From the NCBI GenBank assembly GCA_965113315.1, contig OZ220366.1: 64,000 bases of DNA; one strand, given 5' to 3'. This document shows, piece by piece, positions 9,200-56,880 of this stretch; within the stretch, counting starts at the first letter, position 1, and each line of letters starts with the position of its first letter. This DNA comes from Podarcis vaucheri (taxonomy: Eukaryota). Below the pieces are notes generated by a model. That model saw nothing but the letters and a program-made list of their open reading frames with translations, was not told where the DNA came from and searched no databases. The translations under genes and the position numbers were made by a program.

Positions 9200-9560
9200 A
9201 CAAGCAATGCCACAGAAAGTTAAATCTATTCTTAATTATTTTGTGTTTTTTTTAATTAAGAAGTAAATAACCTTATTAAAAAGAATACTTTCTCTTCTTG
9301 TCATGTTAGTTTGCTCTGTAAGAGACAATTAGTGCAGTCTAAGGGTGAATTATAGAGCTCATTTCATCAATGAGCAGACAAGCTTTCTTTTATGTGCAAT
9401 ATTTGGCATTCTTTGTCAGCAAAGAAATTTGTGCTTCTTTACAGTTTAGTGTATCTTTGTTAGAGAGGAGCTTTCTGCATTTAATTAGGAGAGAGTATAA
9501 CTGATGCCATGATAAAATCTGATAAAAGCAGTTTATATTGTGAAGTAAACTCTCATAGAT
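9200..9560. promoter_or_regulatory. Candidate conserved non-coding element
   Basis: Repeat-free, AT-rich, with clustered TAATTA, TAAATA, TGATAA and CTTTGT motifs; conservation inferred, not tested. Confidence 0.35.
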
Positions 9561-11338: not shown

Positions 11339-14118
11339 ATGTAGACTGGATCAATTCTGAGTGAAGGTTTTTACTGATTATAAGTTAGGTGGAAAAAGCT
11401 TTGAAACATATAGTTCCCTTTTGCTCCACATATCTTTGTGAACAAACATAAAAAAATCTGCTTGATGTTGAACCAGATTTGAGAACAAAAATAGGAAATA
11501 TTGCTCTGCTCTGAATTGTCCAGGAAGCAATTTTAACCACTTGTGGAAGAGTAGTGTGGAGGGATTTTGAACAGAGAGCTGACAGAAAAGCCCCTTCCCC
11601 CCTGTTGCTCTTTGCACTCTTGATCTTAGCCTTGGAGACTGCTGTGCTTTTCTTTACAACAACATAATGTCAGGGGAAAGAACATCACAACTCAGTGTCA
11701 CGTGTAGTTTAAACCTGACCTTGCTACCATGTGGCGTTCTAGATACCAAAATAAGTTTTGTTTCACTTCAAGTTTTTAATATGAACTCGGCACCAAAAAG
11801 TTTCTTTAGTGCAACTCCAAAACATAGTCGTTAAAACTATCCCATTAATGAATGAATGTCCCTCATTCTATACCTACCTACCCCATCTTAGAGACTAACA
11901 AAGAAGAGAAAGTAGATTAAAATTAAATCTGCAAAGAAATCTCTCTTACTTGGCCATTGATTCTTCAGTCTTTCTCAGAACATTTCTAGACATCTTCCAA
12001 TAATTCAGGCTTTTTTCATTTTCTTGTTATATGAAATGACAGTCCTGCAGTTCTCACAATCGATTCAGTTTAGGTTACATGCACATTTTTTAATGGCAGG
12101 GTAACATATATAACAACTTCCTATTTTTAATTCTTATTTTACTTATTCTACAAACTGGGAGGCTAACGGGTGCTGAAATAGCATACCTAATTTGTTGTAC
12201 CAAAGCCTCTCACACCTCATACTCACTGCAGAAGTGCACTTGGTTAAAATAATAATGAGACCACAAGCCTGTGTTGACTGATGCCACATTTCACTTTCCA
12301 TTGTAGAATATAAAAAAATTGCTGAACAACCAAATCTGGATAAGAAAACTTCAACACTACTTCAGAAAGTTCAGCCTTTCCCCTCGACAGAATCCGAATG
12401 CCTTACAATCGTCAGAAAATCAAAAGAATCTATGTTCAGCATTTCTGAAAAACTGAACTGACTTCTTATGTCAAAACATGGATGCATCTGTATTGAGCAA
12501 CATAAAATCAGAAGTCACTTGCAGGTGTTTGAGCTCTACTACTTACTAATTCTTGGGAGGAAGTCACACAAGTATTCCTATAACTTTCTGGAATAATTAT
12601 AAAACAAAGCTATCTTCATTCTCTCTCTTTCCATTTCTGTGTTGTGTTGAAATACACTCCATTACCTAGGCTCCTATAGGGTTTCCTTGACAAGAATTTC
12701 AAGTAATCTACCGAAAGGAAGAGAACTTCACTTTTTGATCATCTTTGACGGAAAGCAGGTTTTGAGGGAAGACAACAGGTAGGAGAAGATTGAGATCTTA
12801 GTCCTGAGTTTTGTACTGAACAAGAGAAAAATAAGTCTTAACTTCTGTCATCTTGCCACTCAGATTTCTTCTTTAGCCCCAGAGAGACAATAATAAGGAG
12901 CATATAGATCAACAGGAGGGGGAAATGCAAGTAGGAATATTAGTTCTAGAACAAATTATACCATGCTGAGGAATCAACTAGAAAGTTGCAACAATTTGCC
13001 TTCATTATTATTATTATTCCTTTTAGCAGCAGGTACATCAACCGAATCTAGCTTCCAAAGTAGATTCAGTTGGAAAATCAACAGCAAAAAGGATTTGCCA
13101 AACTGCTGTGGCAGGGGGTCTTCTGGAATTAAATGTAGTGAAGACAATTAAAGAACGAAGTCACATTAATCCTTGACAGCTGAAATAAGTCTTGTAATTC
13201 AAATGATTTGCATCTCAAATAATTCTAATTTCTAAGTTATATTTGGATCTTTCCCCTCAAAACGCAAGATTAATAACATATACATTTAACCCAAGAACCC
13301 TTGGGAAATTATACTTTCTATGCTCTGAACTCACTGGTGTGTTTGTTTGCATTTCCTCCCATAGAATTAGTAAAGGATTCATGTGCTACTTGTGAACTTT
13401 AATTTGCCTTTCATTTCCTGCCCTTGTTTGAAGATGTGTAGATTGATATTTATATAGAAAGTGCAGATGGTGCCGTAAGCAACTCATCAGCCCCCCAATT
13501 TACTATTACACCGAAATAAATATGAAGCTATGTGACCCCCAAAGTTATGTATTTTAAGCTTATCTCCTCAAATCTAGTATTGCAAAAGAGAAAAGAAAAT
13601 CTCAAGGCCTCAGAGCAACGACACTGGTTCTGGGCAGAGTCCACACTTTGACTCCTCAAAAGGATCTTGCTTGTATGGTAGGGCTCATGTGTGAAATTGT
13701 GAACTAAACTGAAATACAGGCAAATCCCCACTTGCACACATTTGCATTGCACACAACCACGTGCCAAAAGGGGGTAAGGTGGGGGTAGAAGAAGTTGGAA
13801 TGGACTTGCACACATCCTGCTGACAGGTGCAGTGACCCAGAATGGAATTCCCATGTAAGTGGGGGTACACCTGTAATTAAATGATTTATAGAGCAGAAAA
13901 CACATTGTGAAAGTGATCAGGATTTACTTTGTTTTTCATTATTTCCATGCCAGCGAAGTGTATATAACTACTATGTGCTACGTATGCCTCAATGCTAGAT
14001 CTTCATGTCCATTATAGCTGTGTAAATTTTGGAGGCATAACAGGGATTCTGTTACTAAGAGCTACTGGAACTTTTATTTGCTGAAGCCTTTTTAGACGGC
14101 TAAATCTGCTCCACTTGC

Positions 14119-14837
14119 AGTTGCGGTGGACCACGTGGCCACCTCCTCCCCTCCGGAGGTTCCTGGCCATGTCATTCGCCAGCCGGCCAATCTGCTGGCT
14201 GGTGTGTGTGTGTGGCTGGGCCCCATTTAAACTGAGGCACGAGCCAGAGAGCTTCCTCTTGGCTCGCTTCCTCCCTCCCTCCCTATTTTTCAGATTTCGA
14301 CATTAGCCTTGCTATGGACCTTGGTTGGTCACCACTGAGGGGTCTGGTAGGAATTTTTCCACTTGGCAAATTGGCATGGGCCATTTGGTTTTCATCTACC
14401 TCGTATCAATTGCCACAACTTTGTAAGGTTTAGTGGTTAGGCATTGGTTGGTCATATGGGGAGGTGAGGTGTGACCATCACCTGCACCTCCAAGCTTAAG
14501 GGTATTTCCTTAAAGGAATCCAGGGGTGTGGATCTTGTCTGAAGCCCAGGGCAGGGCTAGGGCCATGCCATGACCCCGTCGGGAATCCAGGGGGAGAGCT
14601 CGAGTTGGTTTCCATTGACGGGGCTCCTCCTACTGGTGGTTGATCCTTTCTGGACTTTCTGCATGACGGGCAGGAGTCAGATACAGCTGGATCAATTCCA
14701 ATGCCTAAGCCAATACCGCTCATATTTTGTAACCAAGAAAGTTGTGGCCTAAATTTGCCCAATAACATTAACCTAATATCCGTGTCCTTGTGTCTTATTC
14801 ATCAACGAGGGGGTGGTCTCGGGGTCTCGACACACAA
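14119..14837 (+). mobile_element. Solo-LTR-like element family 1, copy 1
   Basis: CCAAT 14187, ATTTAAA 14225, variant polyA signal AAGAAA 14735; collinear similarity to the 50705-51400, 56121-56880 and 32026-32638 copies. Confidence 0.8.
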
Positions 14838-25312: not shown

Positions 25313-25318
25313 TTGATA

Positions 25319-25454
25319 CAGGCATAGGCAAACTTGGTCCTCCAGATGTTTTTGGCCTACAACTCTCATCATCCCTAGCTAACAGGACCAGTGGTCAGGG
25401 ATGATGGGAGTTGTAGTCACAAAACATCTGGAGGGCTGAGTTTGCCTATGCCTG
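25319..25454. mobile_element. Palindromic hAT-type MITE
   Basis: TIR CAGGCATAGGCAAACT / AGTTTGCCTATGCCTG with near-perfect internal palindrome. Confidence 0.85.
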
Positions 25455-26149
25455 TATAAGTATGTCTTCCATTGTATTTTAATGGTGGTTATATCTATAG
25501 GTTGTTCCGTTGTTGGAAGCAGATGAGATGATCATCAATAGGGTAATACTTTTCCTTTTGTATTTTAGCTTCTATTATTATTGGATACTCAAGTGAATCT
25601 GTATTTACATAGCAGGTTGATATATCCAGTTCCTCTAACAATATAAAAGGCAAAAGCAAAACTGGTAGATTAATACACAAAGGAAACATCTGCATACTTG
25701 GGAACAATTTTGAAAGTAAAAGATGATTACCACCAATGGTACAATTTAGAGAGATATGATCTAATTATCTTTTGAGAATCTTCATTAACGAGCAATCTTT
25801 GCCTACACACAGAAGCTTGGCAAGTACAATTATCTAAAAGGTTTGTTATGTTAATTTATTTTTTTGCATTTTGCAATGTGCAGCAGGGCACTCAAAAAGC
25901 TGAGCAGAATGTAATAGATGTTTAAGGGAAGAGTCACCAACTCCCCCACAAGCTACTATATTAAATCTATTCATCACATACTTTTGTCTACCTCCAATTT
26001 ACTCCACTCACTTCTTTCAGTCAGCCTTACAGTGAAATGCTTCTTCTACTCTGAGCACGAATATGCCATTTTCAAGTTGCTCTCCCCACCTTCCACACTG
26101 TACCTGTGGGAGAGCGAACCTCATATAACCAACATGCTCAAGTCTAATT

Positions 26150-26560: not shown

Positions 26561-26949
26561 TGCAAAGTAATCAACCCCCCTCACTCCCCAACAACTTGCA
26601 ATACCAGAGGCTTCTGTGTGATTACAACGACAAAGCCATGTTTGGATTTATATAGTTGGCATTACAGCTACAAGTTCCTTTCTCCACCTCAGACTTCGAC
26701 TGTGATGAAGAGTGCTGTTTAACTTGACAGCAGGAATGAAGCACCTTTGGGTAACTTGAAAACTTATAAATTTAACCTATCAATTGCCACCAGTTCATTA
26801 GATTTCCAACAGACAATATTCTGATCAGCTTCAGGGTTGAGAGAAGGAGCACTTTCAGTGGGAACACAGTATGAAGAGAACCTGCTCATTGCATATGGGG
26901 AATCAGATGGCTTACCCACATCCCCTTTTTTAAATAAAACCAAGGCTCA

Positions 26950-27313
26950 TTTGAATTATGGTGCTGGAGGAGACTCTTGAGAGTCCCATGGACTGCAAGA
27001 AGATCAAACCTATCCATTCTGAAGGAAATCAGCCCTGAGTGCTCACTGGAAGTGCAGATTGTGAAGCTGAGGCTCCAATACTTTGGCCACCTCATGAGAA
27101 GAGAAGACTCCCTGGAAAAGACCCTGATGTTGGGAAAGATGGAAGGCACAAGGAGAAGGGGACAACAGAGGACGAGATGGTTGGACAGTGTTCTTGAAGC
27201 TATTAACATGGGTTTGACCAAACTGCGGGAGGCAGTTGAAGAGAGGGGTGCCCGGCGTGTTCTGATCCATGGGGTTACAAAGAGTAGGACACGACTAAAT
27301 GACTAAACAACAA
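26950..27313 (+). mobile_element. 5'-truncated RTE/BovB LINE 3' end
   Basis: ORF RVPWTARRSN.SILKEISPECSLE...LRLQYFGHLMRR..SLEKTLMLGK is the RTE/BovB C-terminus; (CAA)n tail; 13-bp TSD CAAGGCTCATTTG at 26941-26953 and 27314-27326. Confidence 0.95.
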
Positions 27314-28353
27314 CAAGGCTCATTTGGATACTCCCAGAGCTATGACCACTGATCATCACAGCCTAGTTGGTGTAAGTAACTATGAAGTCATGGCATAGCA
27401 AACAGCTATTGGTCCACATGTCCTGTTTACCTTTAAGGCAATAGGAGTTTCAGCAGCAATGTTTTGGAAATAGCATGAACCACTGGATAACTTACTAGTG
27501 TAGGTATCAATTTGTTGATCAATACTTCAGCCATTAAGGGTACTCCTCACTTGGCTTGTGTTTAGACCAAAACGACTCACAGCCTGACAGCCAGTATGCC
27601 ATTTCACCGGGAAAGAAATGTAAAGACTGTCAAGGAAGTATCAATACAGCTATATACTTCTATTCTCTACCCCAGATACTGAATCTGAAGAAGTTAGGTA
27701 TGACCTGAAAGTACTTTACTTATATATATAAGGTGAACAATGCTAGCGCAACAAAAGTATTTTATTCGTTTCTCACAAAAAAGGAAGCAATTTCTATTGA
27801 CAAATGAGACATTTGATTGTTTTCAAAGGCACAGTTATTCAAAAAGACGTTACAATTAAATACAGTTCAGCAGTTTAAACAACAGATGGCTGCCATCCTT
27901 TATTCTTCAATTTTTTCAAGTAATATTTTACTGCAGTCTGAAAAGGATAATCTGTAATATTTCTTGCTTTTTTGTTTGTTTGCACAAAAGAGCAATCTGG
28001 AAAGGAATAATGACTTGAATGTGAAGGGTGAACATTTTAAAACAGCATTTTATTTTATTTTATTTCTGTTACATTGACTCTGATCCTTACACAGACAAGA
28101 GGCGGTATGAGCAAAAGAGGTTAAATTTTAGACAGATTGGAATAAAGGGAATCACTAAGCCCACAATCTAAAAGATTGTGAAAGCTAATGGAAGTTATTG
28201 TATTGATTTTGACAGTAACATTATACTATAAGCTAGGAGATTGTGCCCTCATAAAGTTAAGTGCTTAAAAAAAATACCTACAAGGTAATAACTACAGAGA
28301 CTTCTCAGTAGCTGCACCACATCTATGGAACTCATTCCTTGGGAATTGCAACT

Positions 28354-28497
28354 GCCTCAGCTTCAGGATCTGTCCTTCCAGTGAGCACTCAGGGCTGATT
28401 TCCTTCAGAATGGATAGGTTTGATCTTCTTGCAGTCCATGGGACTCTCAAGAGTCTCCTCCAGCACCATAATTCAAATGAGCCTTGGTTTTATTTAA
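28354..28497 (-). repeat. Inverted 144-bp copy of 26930-27073 (BovB 5' junction plus unique flank)
   Basis: Reverse complement matches 26930-27073, including the non-TE flank TTAAATAAAACCAAGGCTCA, with 4 clustered differences. Confidence 0.92.
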
Positions 28498-28637
28498 TTT
28501 CAGGTGTCAAGTTTTCTTGCACTTTTGGGTCTTGATTTTTGCTCTGGGTCTTAACTGTGTTATTATTAATGCTGCTATATACTGCTACTATTTTAGCACT
28601 ATTGTTTTCAACTGAACATACTGCTGTCCTGTTATTA

Positions 28638-28831
28638 CCATATTGGCCCGAATATAAGCCGCTCCCTTAAAATTCCGCAGGCACTAATACCTGTTCCAAT
28701 TTACCATATGTCTGTTTCAGTAGCGATATTGTAAAACCCATTTTTTGTAAGGGCGTGAATTTAAGCCACACTTTAATTTTTCACGGTCGGAATTTGGGAA
28801 AAAAGTGAGGCTTATATTCAGGCCAATATGG
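28638..28831. mobile_element. Tc1/mariner-type MITE
   Basis: TIR CCATATTGGCCCGAATATAAGCC / GGCTTATATTCAGGCCAATATGG, TA on both sides. Confidence 0.9.
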
Positions 28832-29384
28832 TATGTTGTTCATCAGCCTGTCTACATCAAGAAGGACAATATATAAATAAAATAAAGATGACGACAACAT
28901 ACAATACTTGATTAACAAGTCTGACTTGTCACAGATATGTGGCATGGCCCACATAGAGCTAGATCGATTCTGATCATTAAGAATTATTTCTTAGCTCTGG
29001 AACAGGTTAATCTTTAACAAGAATAAAGAAAAAGTCAAACAACTTTAGAGAAGTAACAAAAATAACAGAAGAGAATCATGACGTATTCCGGGGGTGGGTG
29101 GGTATCCATTAAAAAGATGCTGCTCAAGAGTGATCCATGACGGTGACCTTTTAATTGCAGACTTGGTAGTCCCAGAGTATGAGAAAGAGGGAGACAAATT
29201 AAGCCAGGAATTACTTTCTTTATTGAGCAATGTCTGACAGTGGATAAACCCTCCCAGCCTCAGAACTTCTAAAAGCTTTTCTCCAGTTCTGTCAAAGGTA
29301 AGCCAGGCTCTATACAGAAGTTGTTGCTTTTCAATCTCATTTTATTCCTCTACAAGATGGGCAAAGCTTTGCATCATTCGAGGA

Positions 29385-29520
29385 CAGTCTTCCTCAACCT
29401 CGGCCCTCCAGATGTTTTGAGACTACAATTCCCATCATCCCAGACCACTGGTCCTGCTAGCTAGGGATCATGGGAGTTGTAGGCCAAAAACATCTGGAGG
29501 GTAGAGGTTGAGGAAGCCTG
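29385..29520. mobile_element. Palindromic hAT-type MITE
   Basis: CAGTCTTCCTCAACCTC / GAGGTTGAGGAAGCCTG; same core as 25319-25454. Confidence 0.85.
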
Positions 29521-29823
29521 GTCTAGGTTATGTTTTACAAACAAGCTAAGGAAGCATCTGGGTTTTATATTTGACTTGAAACTTAAGTCTCTCTTCTCAG
29601 ACCCAGGAATGACTCAATGACAACTCATAAGCATACTCACATGGCGCTATAGAGAAAGACATGGCCTGATCCACTTTTTTCTCCATAAATATATTAGAAA
29701 TATTCAATTATGATTATGTATCACATTACTTCAGTTAAAAAACCTGGATACGCATGAAAAACAAGATTTCCCGCTTTCACCCATGCACACCAAAAACAGG
29801 AAGGTCACTTAAAAATGGCATTA

Positions 29824-30186
29824 AGGTAAAGGTAAAGGTACCCCTGCCCGTACGGGCCAGTCTTGACAGACTCTAGGATTGTGCGCCCATCTCATTTAAG
29901 AGGCCGGGGGCCAGCACTGTCCGAAGACACTTCCGGGTCACGTGGCCAGCGTGACAAAGCTGCATCTGGCGAGCCAGAGCCGCACACGGAAACGCCGTTT
30001 ACCTTCCCGCCAGTAAGCAGTCCCTATTTATCTACTTGCACTTAAGGGTGCTTTCGAACTGCTAGGTTGGTAGGCGCTGGGACCAAAAGACGGGAGCGCA
30101 CCCCGCCGCAGGGATTCGAACCGCCGACCTTTCGATCGGCAAGCCCTAGGCGCTGAGGCTTTTACCCACAGTGCCGCCCGCGTCCC
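29824..30186 (-). mobile_element. Full-length Sauria SINE (Squam1-type)
   Basis: Minus strand begins GGGACGCGGGCGGCACTGTGGG with B-box GGTTCGAATCC and ends in (ACCTTT)n; 14-bp TSD TAAAAATGGCATTA at 29810-29823 and 30187-30200. Confidence 0.95.
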
Positions 30187-32025: not shown

Positions 32026-32638
32026 TGCAGTGGGGCCAGGCAGAGATACAGCAAACACAAGGCGCACGTCTTGGGATTAAACAGACCACAACTTTATTGA
32101 TTACAGATGTCAGTAGGTTTTGGTGTAGGTATTGGGTGTGTATCCTGAATCATTTGGCCTTACTGCTGGTTGATAAATTGTCAGGGTCGACCCTGGATTA
32201 AGAATCTTTCCATGAAACACATAGAAGCATCCCCCAGAGGGTTACCATCGAAGGATGTGCTATGGCCTAGTCACCCTGGTTTGGGCAGCTGGACAGCAGC
32301 ACCTTACCCTGGACTCCTTTAACAGGATACCCCACTTCCTTTGAGATGTGTGTGGGGCTCCCAACCCCCTGCTCTGTCTTGACTAAGGGTCCAACCCAAT
32401 GCCTTATTTGCCCACAGGTTGTGACTATTGCTATGAGGTAGGCAAAAAACCCAGACAGCCCCAAATTGACTGGAGGGAAAATTATGACCTAGCCCTAAAT
32501 AATTGAGAATTGGCTGGCTCCAGGGCAGGCCCCAGCAACCCCCATGGCCAGTGGAAGAGGAAGTAACATCCTGTGTCAATCACACAGGCCACGAAAGGCC
32601 TTCCCAGCCTGGTGGTAAGCTGAACTGTGCCACAACCA
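32026..32638 (-). mobile_element. Solo-LTR-like element family 1, copy 4 (diverged)
   Basis: Minus strand starts TGGTTGTGG as in copy 3; AATAAAGTTGTGG at 32086-32098; shares GCCTACCTCATAGCAA, AGGCATTGG and GTTAAAGGA blocks. Confidence 0.75.
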
Positions 32639-33181
32639 CTGCCCCCACTGAAAGGTGAGCATCAGTTTTAAATCTTCCCAGTCCTGCCAAGAAAAAACAG
32701 ATGCCGTTTTTCCTGATCATTTGTGCGGCATTTCAAATGAAGATGAAATGGATGCTGTGGCACCCTTGACAATATGGCATCAAGAGATGATTATGGCCAA
32801 TGTTTTATAAACACCTTAAGGCTTCAAGATGCAAAATTTTTATCACAGCTAAATATAAATAGAAAATCAATACCATCATTTCAAAGACTCATTTTGTCCT
32901 CGTTTCCCCCCCTTGCTTCCATGTGACTTGATTAGAATCCACTTTCAATCGTAAATGCTTGGAAAAAATAGACAGTGTTCTATGCTGTTCACCCCCATTG
33001 AATCCTATTCAACTCAAATACCGTAGTATCAACATAAGACCACAATAATCAGAAACTGACTTAGAACTCGGTATTCATTTCGTTTTATAATGTGGAACTT
33101 CCTGCATACAGCATAAGTTGCAGGTCACTACTGGAGTGGGAATGGAGTGGAATTGACCCCTACAGAGTCAAAACTTTATAG

Positions 33182-40733: not shown

Positions 40734-41282
40734 GGACGCGGGTAGTGCTGTGGGTTAAACCACAGAGCCTAGGACTTGCCGATCAGAAGGTCGGCGGTTT
40801 GAATCCCCACGATGGGGTGAGCTCCCGTTGCTCGGTCCCTGCTCCTGCCAACCTAGCAGTTCGAAAGCACATCAAAGTGCAAGCAGATAAATAAGTACCG
40901 CTCCAGCGGGAAGGTAAACGGTGTTTCCGTGCAGTGGCGTAGCGTGGGTTGTCAGCACCCGGGGCAAGGCAAGTAATTTGCGCCCCTAACCCATGGATTT
41001 GCGCCCCCTAACCCGTGGATTTGCACCCCCTAACCCATGGATTTGCGCCCCCTAACCCTAACCCCCAGATGTTGCGCCCGGTGCGGCTGGCCCCCCCTGC
41101 ACCCCCCACGCTACGCCACTGTTTCCGTGTGCTGCTCTGGTTTGCCAGAAGCGGCTTAGTCATGCTGGCCACATGACCCGGAAGCTGTACGCCGGCTCCC
41201 TCGGCCTATAGAGCGAGATGAGTGCTGTAACCCCAGAGTCAGTCACGACTGGACCTAATGGCCAGGGGTCCCTTTACCTTTA
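40734..41282 (+). mobile_element. Full-length Sauria SINE interrupted by a hAT MITE
   Basis: GGACGCGGGTAGTGCTGTGGGTTAAACC head, CCCTTTACCTTTA tail, 15-bp TSD CTATAGGTGACAACA at 40719-40733 and 41283-41297. Confidence 0.96.
40932..41121. mobile_element. hAT MITE with internal 21-22 bp tandem repeats
   Basis: Perfect 17-bp TIR CAGTGGCGTAGCGTGGG / CCCACGCTACGCCACTG; 8-bp TSD TTTCCGTG at 40924-40931 and 41122-41129. Confidence 0.95.
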
Positions 41283-42308
41283 CTATAGGTGACAACAACA
41301 ACACAGTCCTAGAGAACAAGATGACAGAACACCACTTATAGTACAGCTCCCAGCTAAAACCACTCTGAAGTATCATCAGATGCTTGTGATCTGCAGCCCA
41401 TCCTGGACAATGATATCCCCCTCTCACAGGTGTTAGGTGGTTAAAGCTGACCTGCTAGCCTAAAAGAGCTATCAAGAGGCAATAACATGCCACATAACAA
41501 ACACAGGAACAAGATCAAACCTAGATGCCAATTCTGCCCTCTGCCAAGACCCATGACTTGGAGACCTTGCAGTTCTCAATCGAGGACTCTGATGAGGAAG
41601 AAATTGAGGCTGCATCGTTGCAGTGAAAACTGTCATATCTGATTTGGGGTCCTTTCAGCTGGAAGACACAGTTTGGTCACCATCCTCTGAATCAAAGGAT
41701 GAGTCACCTGCAGTACCTCTGCCTTGCCAGCCTTGCCGAAATCATCAGCTATAAAATAAGGTGAGTGCTCTTCAATTAGCCAGCCAGTTCCTTCAGGCAT
41801 GCAAATCCTGCCACAATCCAGGATCTTGTCACTCTGCATAAGCTTCAGTTGGCTCTAGCTCCCTGCAGAGGCAACATCTTCTGTAGCTGTCTTCTGTTGC
41901 CAGCAGGGTCCCCTTGGTACGGTCAAAATTCCTGTTATGGCCTGCTCTCTGCTTGAACTTGTTGGACTTAACTTTGATAAAACAATGCCAACTTTTCCTG
42001 TGAGTCTGTCCACAGTGGAAACTCTCATATACACTCTGGGACAGCAGCAGATGGTAGAATGGAGCAGGGTGGGGCAGCATAGCTTGCCTGGCTTCCTAAT
42101 GCAGAGGGTCACTGCCAGTAACCTAGTGCTGAGTAAATTAACACCTATAGCGGGGCAGGATACCATAATTTACTCAGCAACACTAAAAGGAATCTGTTAT
42201 CACCAATTACTTTGAAGGTCATTTTGCATGTATTTTGACCTCTGATTGACTGTACTTTCACATTCCACTGTCATTTCACTCCAACCTTTACATTTCCCCC
42301 CTTTGCAC

Positions 42309-42666
42309 CAGGGGTCGGCAACCTGTGACCCATCAGATGTTCCTGAACGATATACAGTACAGTGGTACCTCGGGTTAAGTACTTAATTCGTTCCGGAAGT
42401 CCGTTCATAACCTGAAACTGTTCTTAACCTGAAGCACCACTTTAGCTAATGGGGCCTCCTGCTGCTGCCGCACCGCTGGAACATGATTTCTGTTCTCATC
42501 TTGAAGCAAAGTTATTAACCCGAGGTAATATTTCTGGGTTAGCGGAGTCTGTAACCTGAAGCGTATGTAACCTGAAGCATATGTAACCCGAGGTACCACT
42601 GTATTCTATAGCCCTTGACACTGGTGGTGGTTAGAGCTGACCGGGGCTGCAGTCTAACAATATCTG
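42309..42666. mobile_element. Aged palindromic hAT MITE split by a Tigger-like MITE
   Basis: caggggtcggcaacctgtgacccatcagatgtt on the left and ggggctgcagtctaacaatatctg on the right of the insert. Confidence 0.55.
42360..42601. mobile_element. Tc1/mariner-pogo (Tigger-like) MITE
   Basis: TIR CAGTGGTACCTCGGGTTA / TAACCCGAGGTACCACTG, TA TSD. Confidence 0.93.
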
Positions 42667-45485: not shown

Positions 45486-46125
45486 CATACCCTCCAACAT
45501 TTTTCCGATGAAAATAGGGACGTCCCTTTGCATAATGATAATTTTACTATTTATACCCCACACATCTTACTGGGTTGCCCTAGTCACTTTAGGCAGTTTC
45601 CAACATATATAAAAACATAATAAAACATTCAACATTTTAAAAACTTCCCTATACAGGATTGCCTCCAGGCAGCTCGGGGGTCGGATAACTCCATACCCTC
45701 CAACATTTCTCCAATGAAATAGGGACATCCCACCATACCCCGTGACGGAGTGAGCTTCCGTTGCTCGGTTCCTGCTCCTGCCAACCTAGTAGTTCGAAAG
45801 CACATCAAAGTGCAAGTAGATAAATAGGTACCGCTCCGGCGGGAAGGTAAACGGCGTTTCCGTGCGCTGCTCTGGTTCACCAGAAGCGGCTTAGTCATGC
45901 TGGCTCCCTCGGCCAATAAAGCGAGATGAGCGCCACAACCCCAGAGTCGTCAGCGACTGGACCTAATGGTCAGGGGTCCCTTTACCTTTACCATACCCGC
46001 CAACATTTCTTCAGTGAAAATGGAAAGGAAAAGTGGGACATTCCGGGATCGGATCAAATCAGAAACTGGGATGGCTTCTCTAAATCAAGGATGTTCCTGG
46101 AAAATAGGGAAACATGGAGGGTCTG
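45486..46125. mobile_element. Composite hAT-like element (CATACCCTCCAAC termini) containing an L2-like piece and a Sauria SINE
   Basis: CATACCCTCCAACAT start, ATGGAGGGTCTG end; terminal motif recurs at 45691 and 45991; flanks CAGTGC/CAGTGT. Confidence 0.7.
45741..45989 (+). mobile_element. 5'-truncated Sauria SINE with internal deletion
   Basis: Matches the body and tail of the 40734 copy; 9-bp TSD ACCATACCC at 45732-45740 and 45990-45998. Confidence 0.92.
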
Positions 46126-49407: not shown

Positions 49408-50704
49408 GTGAATGAGAATCTTTAAACACAGGCCCTTGGTGCAGTGGTGCTATCAAGGCAGGACTTCCGGGCAGAAGTCCAGGATGCCCACTAAGCAGAA
49501 TGGGGTCGCCAAACACAGCAGGCTTGAATTACTTCATTCTTAAGTAAGCATAGTAACACACATTAAAAACTAAAGGGGAAGGGAGCAGGCATATGATAAT
49601 TAAGTCGAGAGTCTTAAATCACTCAATTGCCCCACTGGTCTCATTATAAGTCATGTTTTTATAGGGAGTAGCACCCCAATAAAAACTTGAGCAGCGTACT
49701 GTTAAGAGAACACTAAAACAGTTCTTTTTTTTAATCCTTGAAAAAGATTTTAAAACAACCAGATCTCCTTGCAGCTGAATAATTTCAAGGTTGCCAGGAA
49801 CAGTATATTTCTGCCACAAAATGCTTATTGTTGCTGTTCTTCTTCTTCGAACATATGGGTACCTGCTTTAAGTCTCGCACTTCCATTTTCTAATTAAAGC
49901 AGCATTTCTGTTTTATTAAGAGCTTCAAGAGTTTTGAGTTGTTCTCAAAGTACCTCAAAGGTTTGACCTGATGCTGAAGACTGCAGTTTGCTGCCTTGTG
50001 TTCTTTTAGAAAGAAGAGTAGGATAGAAATTTAAACAACAGTGAGGTGGACCTCAAAGATGCAAACACCCACATGTGCACATACTGCTTTAGGATGTGAC
50101 AAATATTTCAAAACAAGGCCTAGAAACTTCAACACATCTAAACTCAGTGAGAGTTCTTTATCAACATGCTTTGGATTCTCCTGTAGGAAAAAATAATACT
50201 TATTATTCAGCTGTGCTCACTAGATTAATGACAGTTGTATGGTTAACTAAAAATAGTTGGATAGCTTTAGACATGGGAGTTTTCCCCTAAGTAAATGTAC
50301 CATGATGGTACATACCAAATGCCACGTGTTAAAGAAACTCTCAAAAAGCAAATGCGGGAAAGAAAAGTAAGGATACAATTATAGACTTAAATAGGCTGCA
50401 GATTGATGTATTGATCCATACTGCTAGCCAATTTAAAATGCCATCCAGTGTAGGTACTTTAATGACAGGCAGATCCAGCTGCCAATTCATAGCTGCCTGG
50501 GCTGTGAACCACAGTACAGCTGAAAGGGAAAGCCTGAGCAGCACTTTTGCAAGGAGTGCCTTAAGTGTCACCTTTGTCAGTGCCTTCACATGAATATGTG
50601 AATGTGCAGGCTCTGGGAGAGGAGATTGCAGCTGATTTTCTCCTCATTGGTCGGTCTGCTGTTGTGCTGCTTGGGCTAAGCTATGGTTTGTTTTAGCGTG
50701 TCTT

Positions 50705-51400
50705 CTCTGCGCCACGCCCTAGGCTGACCAATCTGGTTAGCCAAGGGGCGTGGCGTGCTCTATTTAAGCAGCCCACAGGCGGGAAGTTGCCCCATTTTCT
50801 GGTTCCTGCTCCCGCAGTTCTCTCTCCCTCCCTCTCTCCCATTAGGCTCTTAATCCTTTGACCTTGCTATGGTCCTCGGTTGGTCGCCTGTTGAAGGGGC
50901 CTGGTAGAAATTTTTCCCCACTTGGCAAATTGGCATCAGCCATTTGGTTTTCCGCATACCTCGTAGCAAATCGTCACAACTTTGTAAGGTTTGGTGGTTA
51001 GGCATTGGAGTATTCGGTTGAAGGTAAGGAGAGGTAGTGGCCATCACATACCTCTCCTATTTCAAGGGTATTCCGTTAAAGGAATCCGGGGTGTGTGTGG
51101 GCCCATCCGAAGCCCAGGCGGGGGCTAGGGCCATGGAATGACCCCTATCGGTGACCCTGGGGGAGTTCCGGGTCGATGTGCATCAACAGGGCTCCCCCTA
51201 CTGGTGGTTAACGGTTCTGAAACTTCCTGTAGGCAGGCAGGAGTCAGATATAGTCGGTTCGGTTCCAGTGCCTAAGCCAATACCACTCACATTCTGTAAC
51301 CAATAAAGTTGTGGCCTTTTTTAGCCCATTGACCTAATATACTGTTGTCAAGTGTCATCCTTCCAACAAAGGGGAGGGTTCAGGGTCTTGCCACGCAACT
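50705..51400 (+). mobile_element. Solo-LTR-like element family 1, copy 2
   Basis: Inverted GC boxes GCCACGCCC 50711 / GGGCGTGGC 50746, CCAAT 50728, TATTTAA 50761, AATAAA 51302, ends CGCAACT. 5' boundary uncertain. Confidence 0.8.
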
Positions 51401-55519: not shown

Positions 55520-55664
55520 CATCTGGTCCAGCCTTCTGTTTCCCACAGTACAATAAATAGATGCCCCTGGGAAATCCACAAGCAGGGCTTAAGATACACA
55601 CCCAATGCCTACGCCAAAACATGCTAAACATCTGTATTTCATAAAGTTGTGGGCTGTTTAAATA

Positions 55665-55899
55665 CAGCGGTACCTTGGGTTACAAACACCTTGGGTTACA
55701 AACTCCGCTAACTCAGAAGTAGTACCTTGGGTTAAGAACTTTGCCCCAGGATAAGAACAGAAATTGCGCGCCCGCGGTGCGGCAGCAGCAGCAGCAACAG
55801 AAGGCCCCATAAGCTAAAGTGGTACCTCAGGTTAAGAACGGTTTCAGGTTAAGAACAGACCTCCGGAATGAATTAAGTTCGTAACCCGAGGTACCACTG
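55665..55899. mobile_element. Tc1/mariner-pogo (Tigger-like) MITE
   Basis: CAGCGGTACCTTGGGTTAC / GTAACCCGAGGTACCACTG, TA flanks; same family as 42360-42601 in the opposite orientation. Confidence 0.92.
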
Positions 55900-56120
55900 T
55901 AACAGTTGGTTGTGCTTTGGTTACTGCAACTTTAGCATGCCTTGGCTGCAACGCCCATGGCTTGACTGTGCCTGGACCCAAAACATGTCCAATGATGTCT
56001 GATGTTGTGTCACACCATGCCCACTTGTATGGATGAATTTTAGCCCAACATGGCAGTATATCAATAAAAAAAGTCACAGTTCCATACAGCAAAGACTCTC
56101 CTCCCTGGAAGAGAGGGGAG

Positions 56121-56880
56121 TGGTTGTGGGCGGGAGACCGAGCTCCGCCCCTGGTAGGCGGCATTAGCCCCCTCCCCTCCTACCTGGCTGGCGCCCACGC
56201 CTGTTGGGTTGGACTTCCCTTTACACGCCCACCGGAGGTGGCCAACCAGGTGCCTCCGGGGGGCGTGTGTAGCAGCTTAATGCTGTGGTGCCAGCTCCGC
56301 CTCCTCCTCATTCATCGTTATCCCTCAGCGAGTCACCCACCCTCCACTCCCATTTAGCTCAGGGTCTAGGTTTTTGGCCTTGCTATGGACCTTTGGTTGG
56401 TCACCCTGGTTGGCTGGGGGGCCTGGTAGGAATTTTTCCATTTGGCATTAGGCCTTTTGGTTTTTTCGCCTACCTCGTAGCAATCGTCACAACTTTTGTG
56501 GTATTGGTGGGTAGGTTAGGCATTGGATTCATGTGTTGTGCTGTGTCAAGGGCTAGGTGTGGCCATCGCCTATGCTATCTACCGTGGGTTATTCCGTTAA
56601 AGGAATCTGGCGATCGTGTATTCTGTCCGATGCCTGCTTGGCGGGAGGCCATGGCACAACCCTCGGTGACATCAGGGGGTGAGCCTATAGTTGGATGAGC
56701 ATCAACAGGCTCCACCTACTGTTGAATAAACCCACCACCTATAGTCATCCAATGCCTAAGCCAATACCTTTTCACTGCTGTAATCAATAAAGTTGTGGCC
56801 TTTTCTTGCCCATTAACCTTATATCACGTGTCCTTGTGTATTTATTTCACATAGCAGGGTCGGGCCCTCGATCCACAACA
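56121..56880 (+). mobile_element. Solo-LTR-like element family 1, copy 3 (complete)
   Basis: TG...CA termini (TGGTTGTGG / CCACAACA), 4-bp TSD GGAG at 56117-56120 and 56881-56884, AATAAA 56786. Confidence 0.85.

What the first reader, a model, noticed from the sequence alone, without database searches (positions are those of the whole stretch)
14309..14748. A ~440-nt nested, co-varying RNA fold fills the LTR between TATA and polyA signal (possible PAN-like ncRNA unit)
Conserved helices seen across copies: (1) basal TTGCTATG/CGTAGCAA enclosing the ENE-like motif (50864/50962; 56380/56476). (2) Long-range TTAGGCATTGG/CCAATGCCTAA (14437/14698; 50998/51265 with a G-U pair; 56516/56747 extended to GGAT/ATCC; copy 4 extended by GGGT/ACCC). 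(3) A hairpin with different stems around a conserved TG(G/A)CCAT core: GAGGTG-AGGTG/CACCT-G-CACCTC (14461-14490), AGGAGAGGTA/TACCTCTCCT (51027-51058), TAGGTG/CGCCTA (56554-56572). (4) An ATTCC-GTTAAA-GGAAT-type hairpin. (5) A GGGGG(A/T)GAGC.../...GCTCC hairpin. Sequence turnover with retained pairing points to selection on RNA structure. Because promoter motifs lie about 80-100 nt upstream of the fold and AATAAA closes it, even a solo LTR could yield a ~500-nt structured polyadenylated RNA, or the element has an unusually long structured R region acting in export or packaging, analogous to the HTLV-1 RxRE (inference).
Basis: partly seen in the sequence, partly recalled or inferred. Interest (0 to 1): 0.8.

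Follow-up and report, generated by a model that had tools for sequence, protein, structure and literature searches.

The report
Folded tail module of Ngaro retrotransposon
This is the decaying leftover end-piece of a recombinase-type jumping gene, present in hundreds to thousands of copies in the genome; its RNA is predicted to fold into a conserved shape that would likely hold and protect the element's own poly(A) tail, and nothing shows it to be an abundant RNA gene in its own right.

Summary
Window 14104-14837 is a solo A-spacer-B unit of a Ngaro-type tyrosine-recombinase retrotransposon (A1-ORFs-B1-A2-spacer-B2; RT, recombinase, SGNH hydrolase; no target duplication). The fold has two parts: an ENE-like U-rich internal loop in the spacer, present once per element (49 of 49 complete ends), and a multi-hairpin B repeat closed by a long-range helix. 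RNA reads from a related species show low-level sense transcription, a fall in depth across AATAAA, and a few template-switch-tagged 5' ends just before the spacer. Likely role: a 3'-end module that parks the poly(A) tail beside the ENE of the replicating RNA; triplex untested. No PAN-like abundance was seen. The scan noted the same element and ENE-like arm earlier, in this genome and others; I found no paper on it.

The parts
14104..14837 (+). Solo A-spacer-B unit of a Ngaro-type YR retrotransposon (decayed copy, 81-87% to its 29 nearest fetched relatives)
   Evidence: Ends; same subfamily joined to a YR fragment with a B|A junction in L186
14104..14272 (+). A repeat (promoter part); 3' border inferred by analogy with 8 full-length elements
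   Evidence: A1=A2 over 198-234 bp in full-length elements; border in this subfamily not seen directly
14187..14191 (+). CCAAT box-like motif
   Evidence: sequence; function inferred
14225..14231 (+). TATA-like ATTTAAA, about 50 bases before the end of A as in other subfamilies
   Evidence: sequence; function inferred
14273..14430 (+). Unique spacer between A2 and B2 (once per element); borders approximate
14309..14409 (+). Basal helix 14309-14316 / 14402-14409 enclosing the ENE-like domain; one pair broken in this copy
   Evidence: 95% of cells paired, no double change
14346..14400 (+). ENE-like arm: lower stem, U5 (14354-14358) opposite U4 (14389-14392), closed by CCA/UGG
   Evidence: motif in 49 of 49 complete ends; U-tracts 3-7 long; triplex not tested
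14414..14422 (+). CACAACTTT at the spacer's end, complementary to AAAGTTGTG (14738-14746) at and after the hexamer: predicted 3'-end clamp
   Evidence: GTCACAACT in 49 of 49 and GTTGTGG in 48 of 49; paired in folds; invariant, so no covariation
14431..14837 (+). B repeat (5' border approximate)
   Evidence: B1=B2 over 359-442 bp, starting 0-7 bases before GGTTAGGCATTGG
14437..14708 (+). Long-range helix 14437-14447 / 14698-14708 closing the B domain
   Evidence: near-invariant
14461..14490 (+). Hairpin H3
   Evidence: swap -1.8 kcal/mol, p 0.009
14500..14521 (+). Hairpin H4 with (G)TTAAA loop
   Evidence: UA to GC change in 3 rows
14523..14577 (+). Stem-loop H5
   Evidence: swap -4.0, p 0.0001
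14590..14631 (+). Hairpin H7
   Evidence: swap -7.9, p 0.00001
14642..14693 (+). Subfamily-variable stem-loop H8 (absent in the copy-3 group)
14735..14740 (+). Poly(A) hexamer, here mutated to AAGAAA, preceded by TGTA
14782..14796 (+). GT-rich stretch downstream of the hexamer (downstream-element-like)
   Evidence: sequence; function inferred
50694..51398 (+). Second solo unit, other subfamily, 5' end lost
56093..56878 (+). Third solo unit, young subfamily (94-95% to 29 fetched copies)
32040..32640 (-). Fourth, old and decayed copy (borders approximate)
55593..55661 (+). Fragment of the 3' part of B of the fourth type

Best explanation
The stretch is the spacer and B repeat of a solo end-unit left by a Ngaro-type tyrosine-recombinase retrotransposon, and its conserved fold is likely a 3'-end module in which long-range helices would bring the new poly(A) tail next to an ENE-like U-rich loop that is predicted to bind and protect it. 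Shown: the parent's layout A1-ORFs-B1-A2-spacer-B2, the single ENE-like arm in the spacer, compensatory change in B's inner hairpins, and sense transcription in a related species. Inferred: transcription starts near the end of A; RNA cut at B1 carries the ORFs but no ENE and cannot rebuild the ends, whereas RNA that reads through B1 to B2 carries the B|A junction needed for recombinase integration and is the only long RNA with the ENE; the B-closing helix and the CACAAC/GUUGUG helix shorten some 330 bases between ENE and tail to a few dozen. Solo units most simply arise by A1 x A2 recombination and then decay; some give a short spacer-B RNA at low level as a by-product.
For: Layout: 50 of 83 YR-anchored loci show B1..B2; A1=A2 in 8 of 20 long loci and in L091, L092; RVT_1 3e-12 and 2e-13, Phage_integrase 8e-7 and 3e-4, Lipase_GDSL_2 1e-4 and 2e-3. 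No target duplication in 23 of 25 young solos, A in the middle of the left trinucleotide in 23 of 25, as described for YR integration (PMC7192593, passages). ENE-like arm in 49 of 49 spacers, once per element in 6 of 6 checked. Covariation. Private changes in solos break pairs in 133 of 185 cases, shared changes in coding lineages in 65 of 109 (p 0.04). RNA: sense-only depth over SGNH, B and spacer in two stranded runs, falling from about 80 to 25 and 30 to 12 across AATAAA; B-to-A junction reads 4; spacer-to-B junction reads 13, 15, 9, 7. Precedent: the Evade ENE stabilises retrotransposon RNA (PMC12501189, first fifth of text).
Against: No triplex, cleavage site or stability effect was measured; no poly(A)-tailed read end is among the loose ends listed (63 and 88 were not shown). 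All-pairs covariation test negative. The ENE arm and the two clamping helices are near-invariant, so they could be protein or primer sites rather than helices. Eleven counted copies have only three U on the 5' side and a G opening the 3' side, short of PAN's five triples. No Rfam match. The reads come from another species (85-99% alike) and unknown tissues.
Confidence: 0.6

Rival explanations
1. The fold is mainly a replication or packaging signal (priming of reverse transcription, template jump, Gag binding) at the start of B, and the U-rich loop is a protein site rather than a poly(A) clamp.
For: The long-range helix begins within 0-7 bases of B's 5' border in the complete ends and is fixed in sequence; it is present in B1, which has no ENE; the primer of YR elements is unknown (PMC7192593, passages).
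Against: The spacer arm has the two-sided U-rich loop with G-C flanks that defines ENE searches (PMC7583470, passages), and a spacer motif pairs right at the hexamer. The two roles are not exclusive.
Confidence: 0.25
2. The structures form a poly(A)-site switch: the end of the SGNH frame pairs with the stretch before B1's hexamer and dampens cleavage there, so that part of the RNA reads on to B2.
For: That duplex is stronger in the B1 than the B2 setting in 35 of 36 elements, swaps poorly between clades (-8.5 kcal/mol, p 0.0006, 8 representatives) and keeps 85-92% of pairs; read-through reads exist.
Against: Opening the hexamer costs more at B1 in only 10 of 36, opening TGTA-to-hexamer in 6 of 13, mostly one clade group; within-clade double changes are not above chance.
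Confidence: 0.25
3. The solo unit is a PAN-like, abundant non-coding RNA gene with its own function.
For: Template-switch-tagged 5' ends at one base eight letters before the end of A, running into the spacer (6 reads; the same base in 14 mixed reads; tag checked); about 426 solo against 52 complete ends in one young group.
Against: Only 78-514 reads per 10.5-12.8 million; in X24 spacer depth (12-28) does not exceed read-through depth; solos decay like neutral DNA; this copy has lost its hexamer.
Confidence: 0.1
4. A solo LTR of an endogenous retrovirus or Gypsy element with a long structured R region.
For: Promoter-like motifs, poly(A) signal and solo excess look alike.
Against: No TG..CA ends, no target duplication, split repeats and a tyrosine recombinase in the parents.
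Confidence: 0.01

Closest known systems
Ngaro superfamily of YR retrotransposons, amphibian type with SGNH hydrolase (Xenopus DIRS-53_XT; PMC9210276, passages read)
   Same: A1-ORFs-B1-A2-B2 layout, RT, YR and SGNH frames, A of about 200-236 bp
   Different: B is 359-442 bp here against 152 bp; a unique spacer of about 175 bp with an ENE-like arm separates A2 and B2; no RNA structure is mentioned in the passages read
Solo AB repeats of Cafeteria Ngaro (PMC8547959) and SIRE = VIPER A2+B2 with a 30-bp unique middle (PMC6681497); passages read
   Same: Isolated A-(spacer)-B units scattered through the genome, attributed to recombination or possibly mobile in trans
   Different: Far more copies here, a long structured spacer, and evidence of transcription
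Single-domain ENE of KSHV PAN RNA and transposon ENEs such as Arabidopsis Evade (PMC7583470, PMC13541005 passages; PMC12501189 first fifth of text)
   Same: [quoted passage not shown]
   Different: Host is a vertebrate YR element (the review lists plants, fungi, slime mould and stickleback retroviruses); an extra AA or AG precedes the 5' U-tract; U-tracts shrink to three in some lineages; 330 bases from the hexamer, bridged by long-range helices; triplex untested
HTLV-1 Rex response element (recalled, not checked in a call)
   Same: A long fold that brings distant 3'-end signals together
   Different: Here hexamer and downstream element are adjacent; what is brought in is the ENE-like arm; no sequence likeness claimed

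Membership tests
Ngaro YR retrotransposon | Split direct repeats A1...B1 A2 B2 | tested here: met
   this copy's subfamily shows the B|A junction behind a YR fragment
Ngaro YR retrotransposon | RT followed by tyrosine recombinase, no DDE integrase | tested here: met
   (2 elements, 9 frames; one YR above Pfam's cut-off, one below; no rve hit)
Ngaro YR retrotransposon | No methyltransferase domain; SGNH frame after YR in amphibian-type members | tested here: inconclusive
   No MT hit and weak GDSL hits below cut-off; absence of a Pfam hit is not proof
Ngaro YR retrotransposon | Integration without target duplication at a short shared core | tested here: met
   23 of 25 without duplication; L075 restores an intact small transposon sharing CAA
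Ngaro YR retrotransposon | RT phylogeny groups with Ngaro rather than PAT | not tested
   no reference sequences fetched
LTR of ERV or Gypsy | TG..CA ends, 4-6 bp target duplication, two like LTRs around gag-pol | tested here: not met
ENE (poly(A)-binding triplex element) | [quoted passage not shown] | tested here: met
   U-tracts of 3-7
ENE (poly(A)-binding triplex element) | Lies near the 3' end of a polyadenylated RNA | tested here: inconclusive
   330 bases before the hexamer; depth falls across the hexamer, but no tailed end was listed
ENE (poly(A)-binding triplex element) | Forms U-A.U triples with poly(A) and stabilises the RNA | not testable with these tools
   needs melting, probing or reporter assays
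PAN-like viral non-coding RNA | Very abundant stand-alone transcript | tested here: not met
   78-514 reads of 10.5-12.8 million in four runs of a related species, tissues unknown

The most novel reading that the evidence does not exclude
Ngaro elements in this lineage make a second, roughly 530-nt capped and tailed RNA (or a mini-circle) from A2-spacer-B2 that is protected by a vertebrate retrotransposon ENE and is copied and inserted by the parent's RT and recombinase, so that the thousands of 'solo' units are a self-spreading short element rather than recombination scars; a helix formed with the end of the SGNH frame tunes the choice between the two identical poly(A) sites.
Probability: 0.2. 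Interest if true: 0.75.

Novelty: new variant of a known kind. Interest (0 to 1): 0.45.

Why it matters
How split-repeat YR retrotransposons read through their first poly(A) site, protect the long RNA and rebuild their ends is almost untested. This family gives a compact, many-copy, recently active case with a defined candidate stability element placed only on the replicating RNA, and would extend poly(A)-binding triplex elements to a vertebrate YR element. The element class and solo units are known, and this copy is decayed, which caps the interest.

Tried and rejected
Rfam: no match at gathering score in the window; only weak non-structural hits (E 1.5-6) around the copy; none at E<=1 for a young copy. 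Helitron/Helentron, Penelope and ribozyme readings were considered from the termini (recalled features) and dropped once YR and split repeats appeared; no ribozyme model was run beyond Rfam. ERV/Gypsy LTR rejected. No RT, YR or SGNH remnant in the window. All-pairs covariation test: nothing at E<=0.05, no excess of complementary pairs among top scores. RNAalifold on the sequence-only alignment of B recovered just 27 pairs and missed H7. Simple hexamer occlusion at B1 not supported (10 of 36; 6 of 13). The dip in read depth over the 3' half of A in bulk runs was not taken as a start site because loose ends show subfamily divergence there. The primary ENE surveys (PMC4864102, PMC3430378) are not held, so their element lists and supplements, which could include DIRS-order elements, were not seen. 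Literature searches with no useful result.

Full report
Observation. Rfam has nothing for them.

The repeat is very common. The three main copies gave 5261, 6477 and 3793 first-look candidates in the 1.6-Gb genome, of which 40 each were scored. Ends are sharp but are not TG..CA: copies end in CGCAA or CACAA and begin just after a short core. Of 25 young solo copies among L061-L090, 23 have no target duplication and 23 have A in the middle of the left trinucleotide (10 CAA, 5 TAA, 4 TAG). One sits in a small transposon whose halves rejoin exactly with one CAA shared. This fits integration by a tyrosine recombinase at a trinucleotide (PMC7192593, passages).

The parent. Five of 30 young loci had the 3' half of the unit repeated directly upstream. 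Longer stretches showed A1, internal sequence, B1, A2, a unique spacer and B2. Two intact-looking elements gave RVT_1 (3e-12, 2e-13), Phage_integrase (3e-4, 8e-7) and weak GDSL lipase hits (1e-4, 2e-3); the three upstream frames had no hit. Of 83 YR-anchored loci (4 chosen for the repeat, 79 from two YR hit lists), 50 had B1 and B2; one tandem locus was dropped, leaving 49. A is 198-234 bp, B 359-442 bp, the spacer about 175 bp. The subfamily of the finding has one exact B|A junction in the genome, and it follows a YR fragment 59% identical to an intact one. This is the Ngaro layout, with the SGNH frame described for amphibians (PMC9210276, passages); solo AB units are described in Cafeteria and as SIRE (PMC8547959, PMC6681497, passages; both papers were leads). 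So the finding covers the spacer and B up to the hexamer, not an R region.

Census in one young group, by exact patterns: 478 spacer-B junctions, 139 ORF-B1 junctions, 52 B1-A2 junctions, so roughly 426 solos, 87 elements with one B and 52 complete ends; the patterns differ in sensitivity. Fifteen of the 52 lie on one 41-Mb contig (p 2e-12). Recombination between like repeats explains both truncated forms; direct insertion of a small circle is not excluded.

The fold. Fifteen copies folded separately give the same plan. Spacer domain: basal helix, side hairpin and an arm with U-tracts on both sides. On 35 sequences (35 of 57 distinct, from 77 of 104 with anchors) 94.6% of cells pair, 4 of 32 pairs have a double change, the clearest being GC/AU/GU at the foot of the arm. 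The arm is in 49 of 49 spacers and occurs once in each of 6 long elements checked. U-tracts run from 3 to 7. B domain: a near-invariant 10-11 bp helix closes hairpins H3, H4, H5, H7 and a variable H8. Swapping arms among 10 subfamily representatives costs 7.9 (H7), 4.0 (H5), 1.8 (H3), 1.0 (H4), 0.9 (closing helix), 1.3 (basal) and nothing for the ENE arm; four control pairings gave -1.0 to +0.3 (this test ignores relatedness). Pairs predicted from one sequence and scored on the others showed 28 double changes against 8.9 for permuted partners in the largest clade (25 sequences), 9 against 2.2 (6) and 15 against 8.3 (21), but 1 against 0.7 (7) and 2 against 3.6 in the finding's own subfamily (19). 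An all-pairs test against 100 simulated alignments found no pair at E<=0.05 (38 sequences). Private changes in solos break pairs more often (133 of 185) than shared changes in coding lineages (65 of 109; p 0.04). Reading: selection acted on the fold in replicating lineages, and solos decay. The window copy has a broken basal pair, AAGAAA for AATAAA, and z -1.4.

First, GTCACAACT at the spacer's end (49 of 49) is complementary to the bases at and just after the hexamer (48 of 49) and pairs in many B2 folds; it would pin the 3' end to the foot of the ENE domain. It is invariant, so pairing is inferred. Second, upstream of B1 the end of the SGNH frame pairs with the stretch before the hexamer (stronger than in the B2 setting in 35 of 36 chosen elements; clade-specific). 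Whether this dampens B1 is open: the hexamer is harder to open at B1 in only 10 of 36, and within-clade double changes are at chance.

RNA. No indexed holder is on record as RNA, but four raw runs of a related species were laid. In two stranded bulk runs depth over SGNH, B and spacer is almost all on one strand, the sense strand under the usual library convention; it falls from about 80 to 25 (X24) and 30 to 12 (X23) across the hexamer; spacer-to-B junction reads number 13, 15, 9 and 7, and 4 reads cross B into A. In single-cell run X21, 6 reads carry the Smart-seq3 tag, eight letters and GGG directly before L191:1774, eight bases before the end of A, and run into the spacer (tag confirmed in 10.1101/817924, passages); 14 mixed loose ends sit at the same base. 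The number of molecules is unknown and other tagged ends lie inside the spacer. Levels are low, 78-514 reads in 10.5-12.8 million. No tailed end was listed. None of this is specific to the window copy.

Mechanism. Shown: layout, single ENE-like arm in the spacer, compensated inner hairpins, sense RNA that partly ends and partly reads through at B. Inferred: only RNA that reaches B2 holds the B|A junction and the ENE-like arm; the closing helix and the spacer clamp place the tail beside the U-rich loop, as ENEs do for PAN and Evade (PMC7583470 and PMC13541005, passages; PMC12501189, first fifth of text). I put 0.95 on the identity and 0.6 on identity plus this role. Rivals are a priming or packaging signal, a poly(A)-site switch and a stand-alone RNA gene.

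Novelty. Ngaro elements, solo AB units and transposon ENEs are each known. Searches for Ngaro with RNA structure and polyadenylation and for ENE with DIRS and triple helix found 0 papers; searches listed none joining the two by title or abstract start; the primary ENE surveys and their supplements could not be read. The scan itself has noted this element and arm before, in this genome (e1-9841171, e1-9588416) and others; my Ngaro and ENE reading was written down before the first look-up, and these notes are not counted as support. Verdict: a new variant of a known kind, interest 0.45.

Noticed in passing
L091, L166, L167, L171, L170 and kin, about 60 bases upstream of B1: The last codons of the SGNH frame pair with the stretch before B1's poly(A) hexamer, with clade-specific matching changes, and enclose a small conserved GAGC/GCTC hairpin.
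   Followed up: partly
G000 contig C41: 15 of 52 complete element ends of one group lie on this 41-Mb contig (2.6% of the genome), as might be expected of a non-recombining chromosome.
   Followed up: partly
many YR-anchored loci, e.g. L153, L155, L156, L208, L209: Elements that end cleanly after a single B (A1-ORFs-B) appear to outnumber complete ones (about 87 to 52 in one group).
   Followed up: partly
L212; G000:C34:8852360-8853145; G000:C41:6597151-6598325: Tandem B|A junctions 0.8-1.2 kb apart, suggesting repeated A-spacer-B units.
   Followed up: no
window 14104-14135 and 14820-14837: The unit starts with a short hairpin followed by a motif complementary to its own 3' end; in this copy about 11 bases of the hairpin and about 60 bases of A are deleted.
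   Followed up: no
window 14280-14293 and the spacer start of several subfamilies: A pyrimidine run ending in AG, like a splice acceptor, opens the spacer in several but not all subfamilies.
   Followed up: no
L091:8612-8819 and 9236-9313: Antisense reads cover the 5' part of A in two bulk runs, and one divergent B fragment is covered about 250-300 deep on the antisense strand, probably inside a host transcript.
   Followed up: no
window 26930-28497: 144-bp inverted arms, 97% complementary, 1280 bases apart: a probable young DNA transposon.
   Followed up: no
window 25316-25457, 29384-29520, 28636-28833, 42351-42610, 55663-55901: Several short inverted-repeat elements (MITE-like); one family is the target of insertion L075.
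   Followed up: partly
window 29822-30161, 40757-41297, 45738-46005: Copies of another dispersed repeat in both orientations (SINE-like by recall), with a 22-bp tandem array at 40983-41058.
   Followed up: no
L097:2662-5571 (minus): A 970-residue open frame near a split solo copy, not identified.
   Followed up: no
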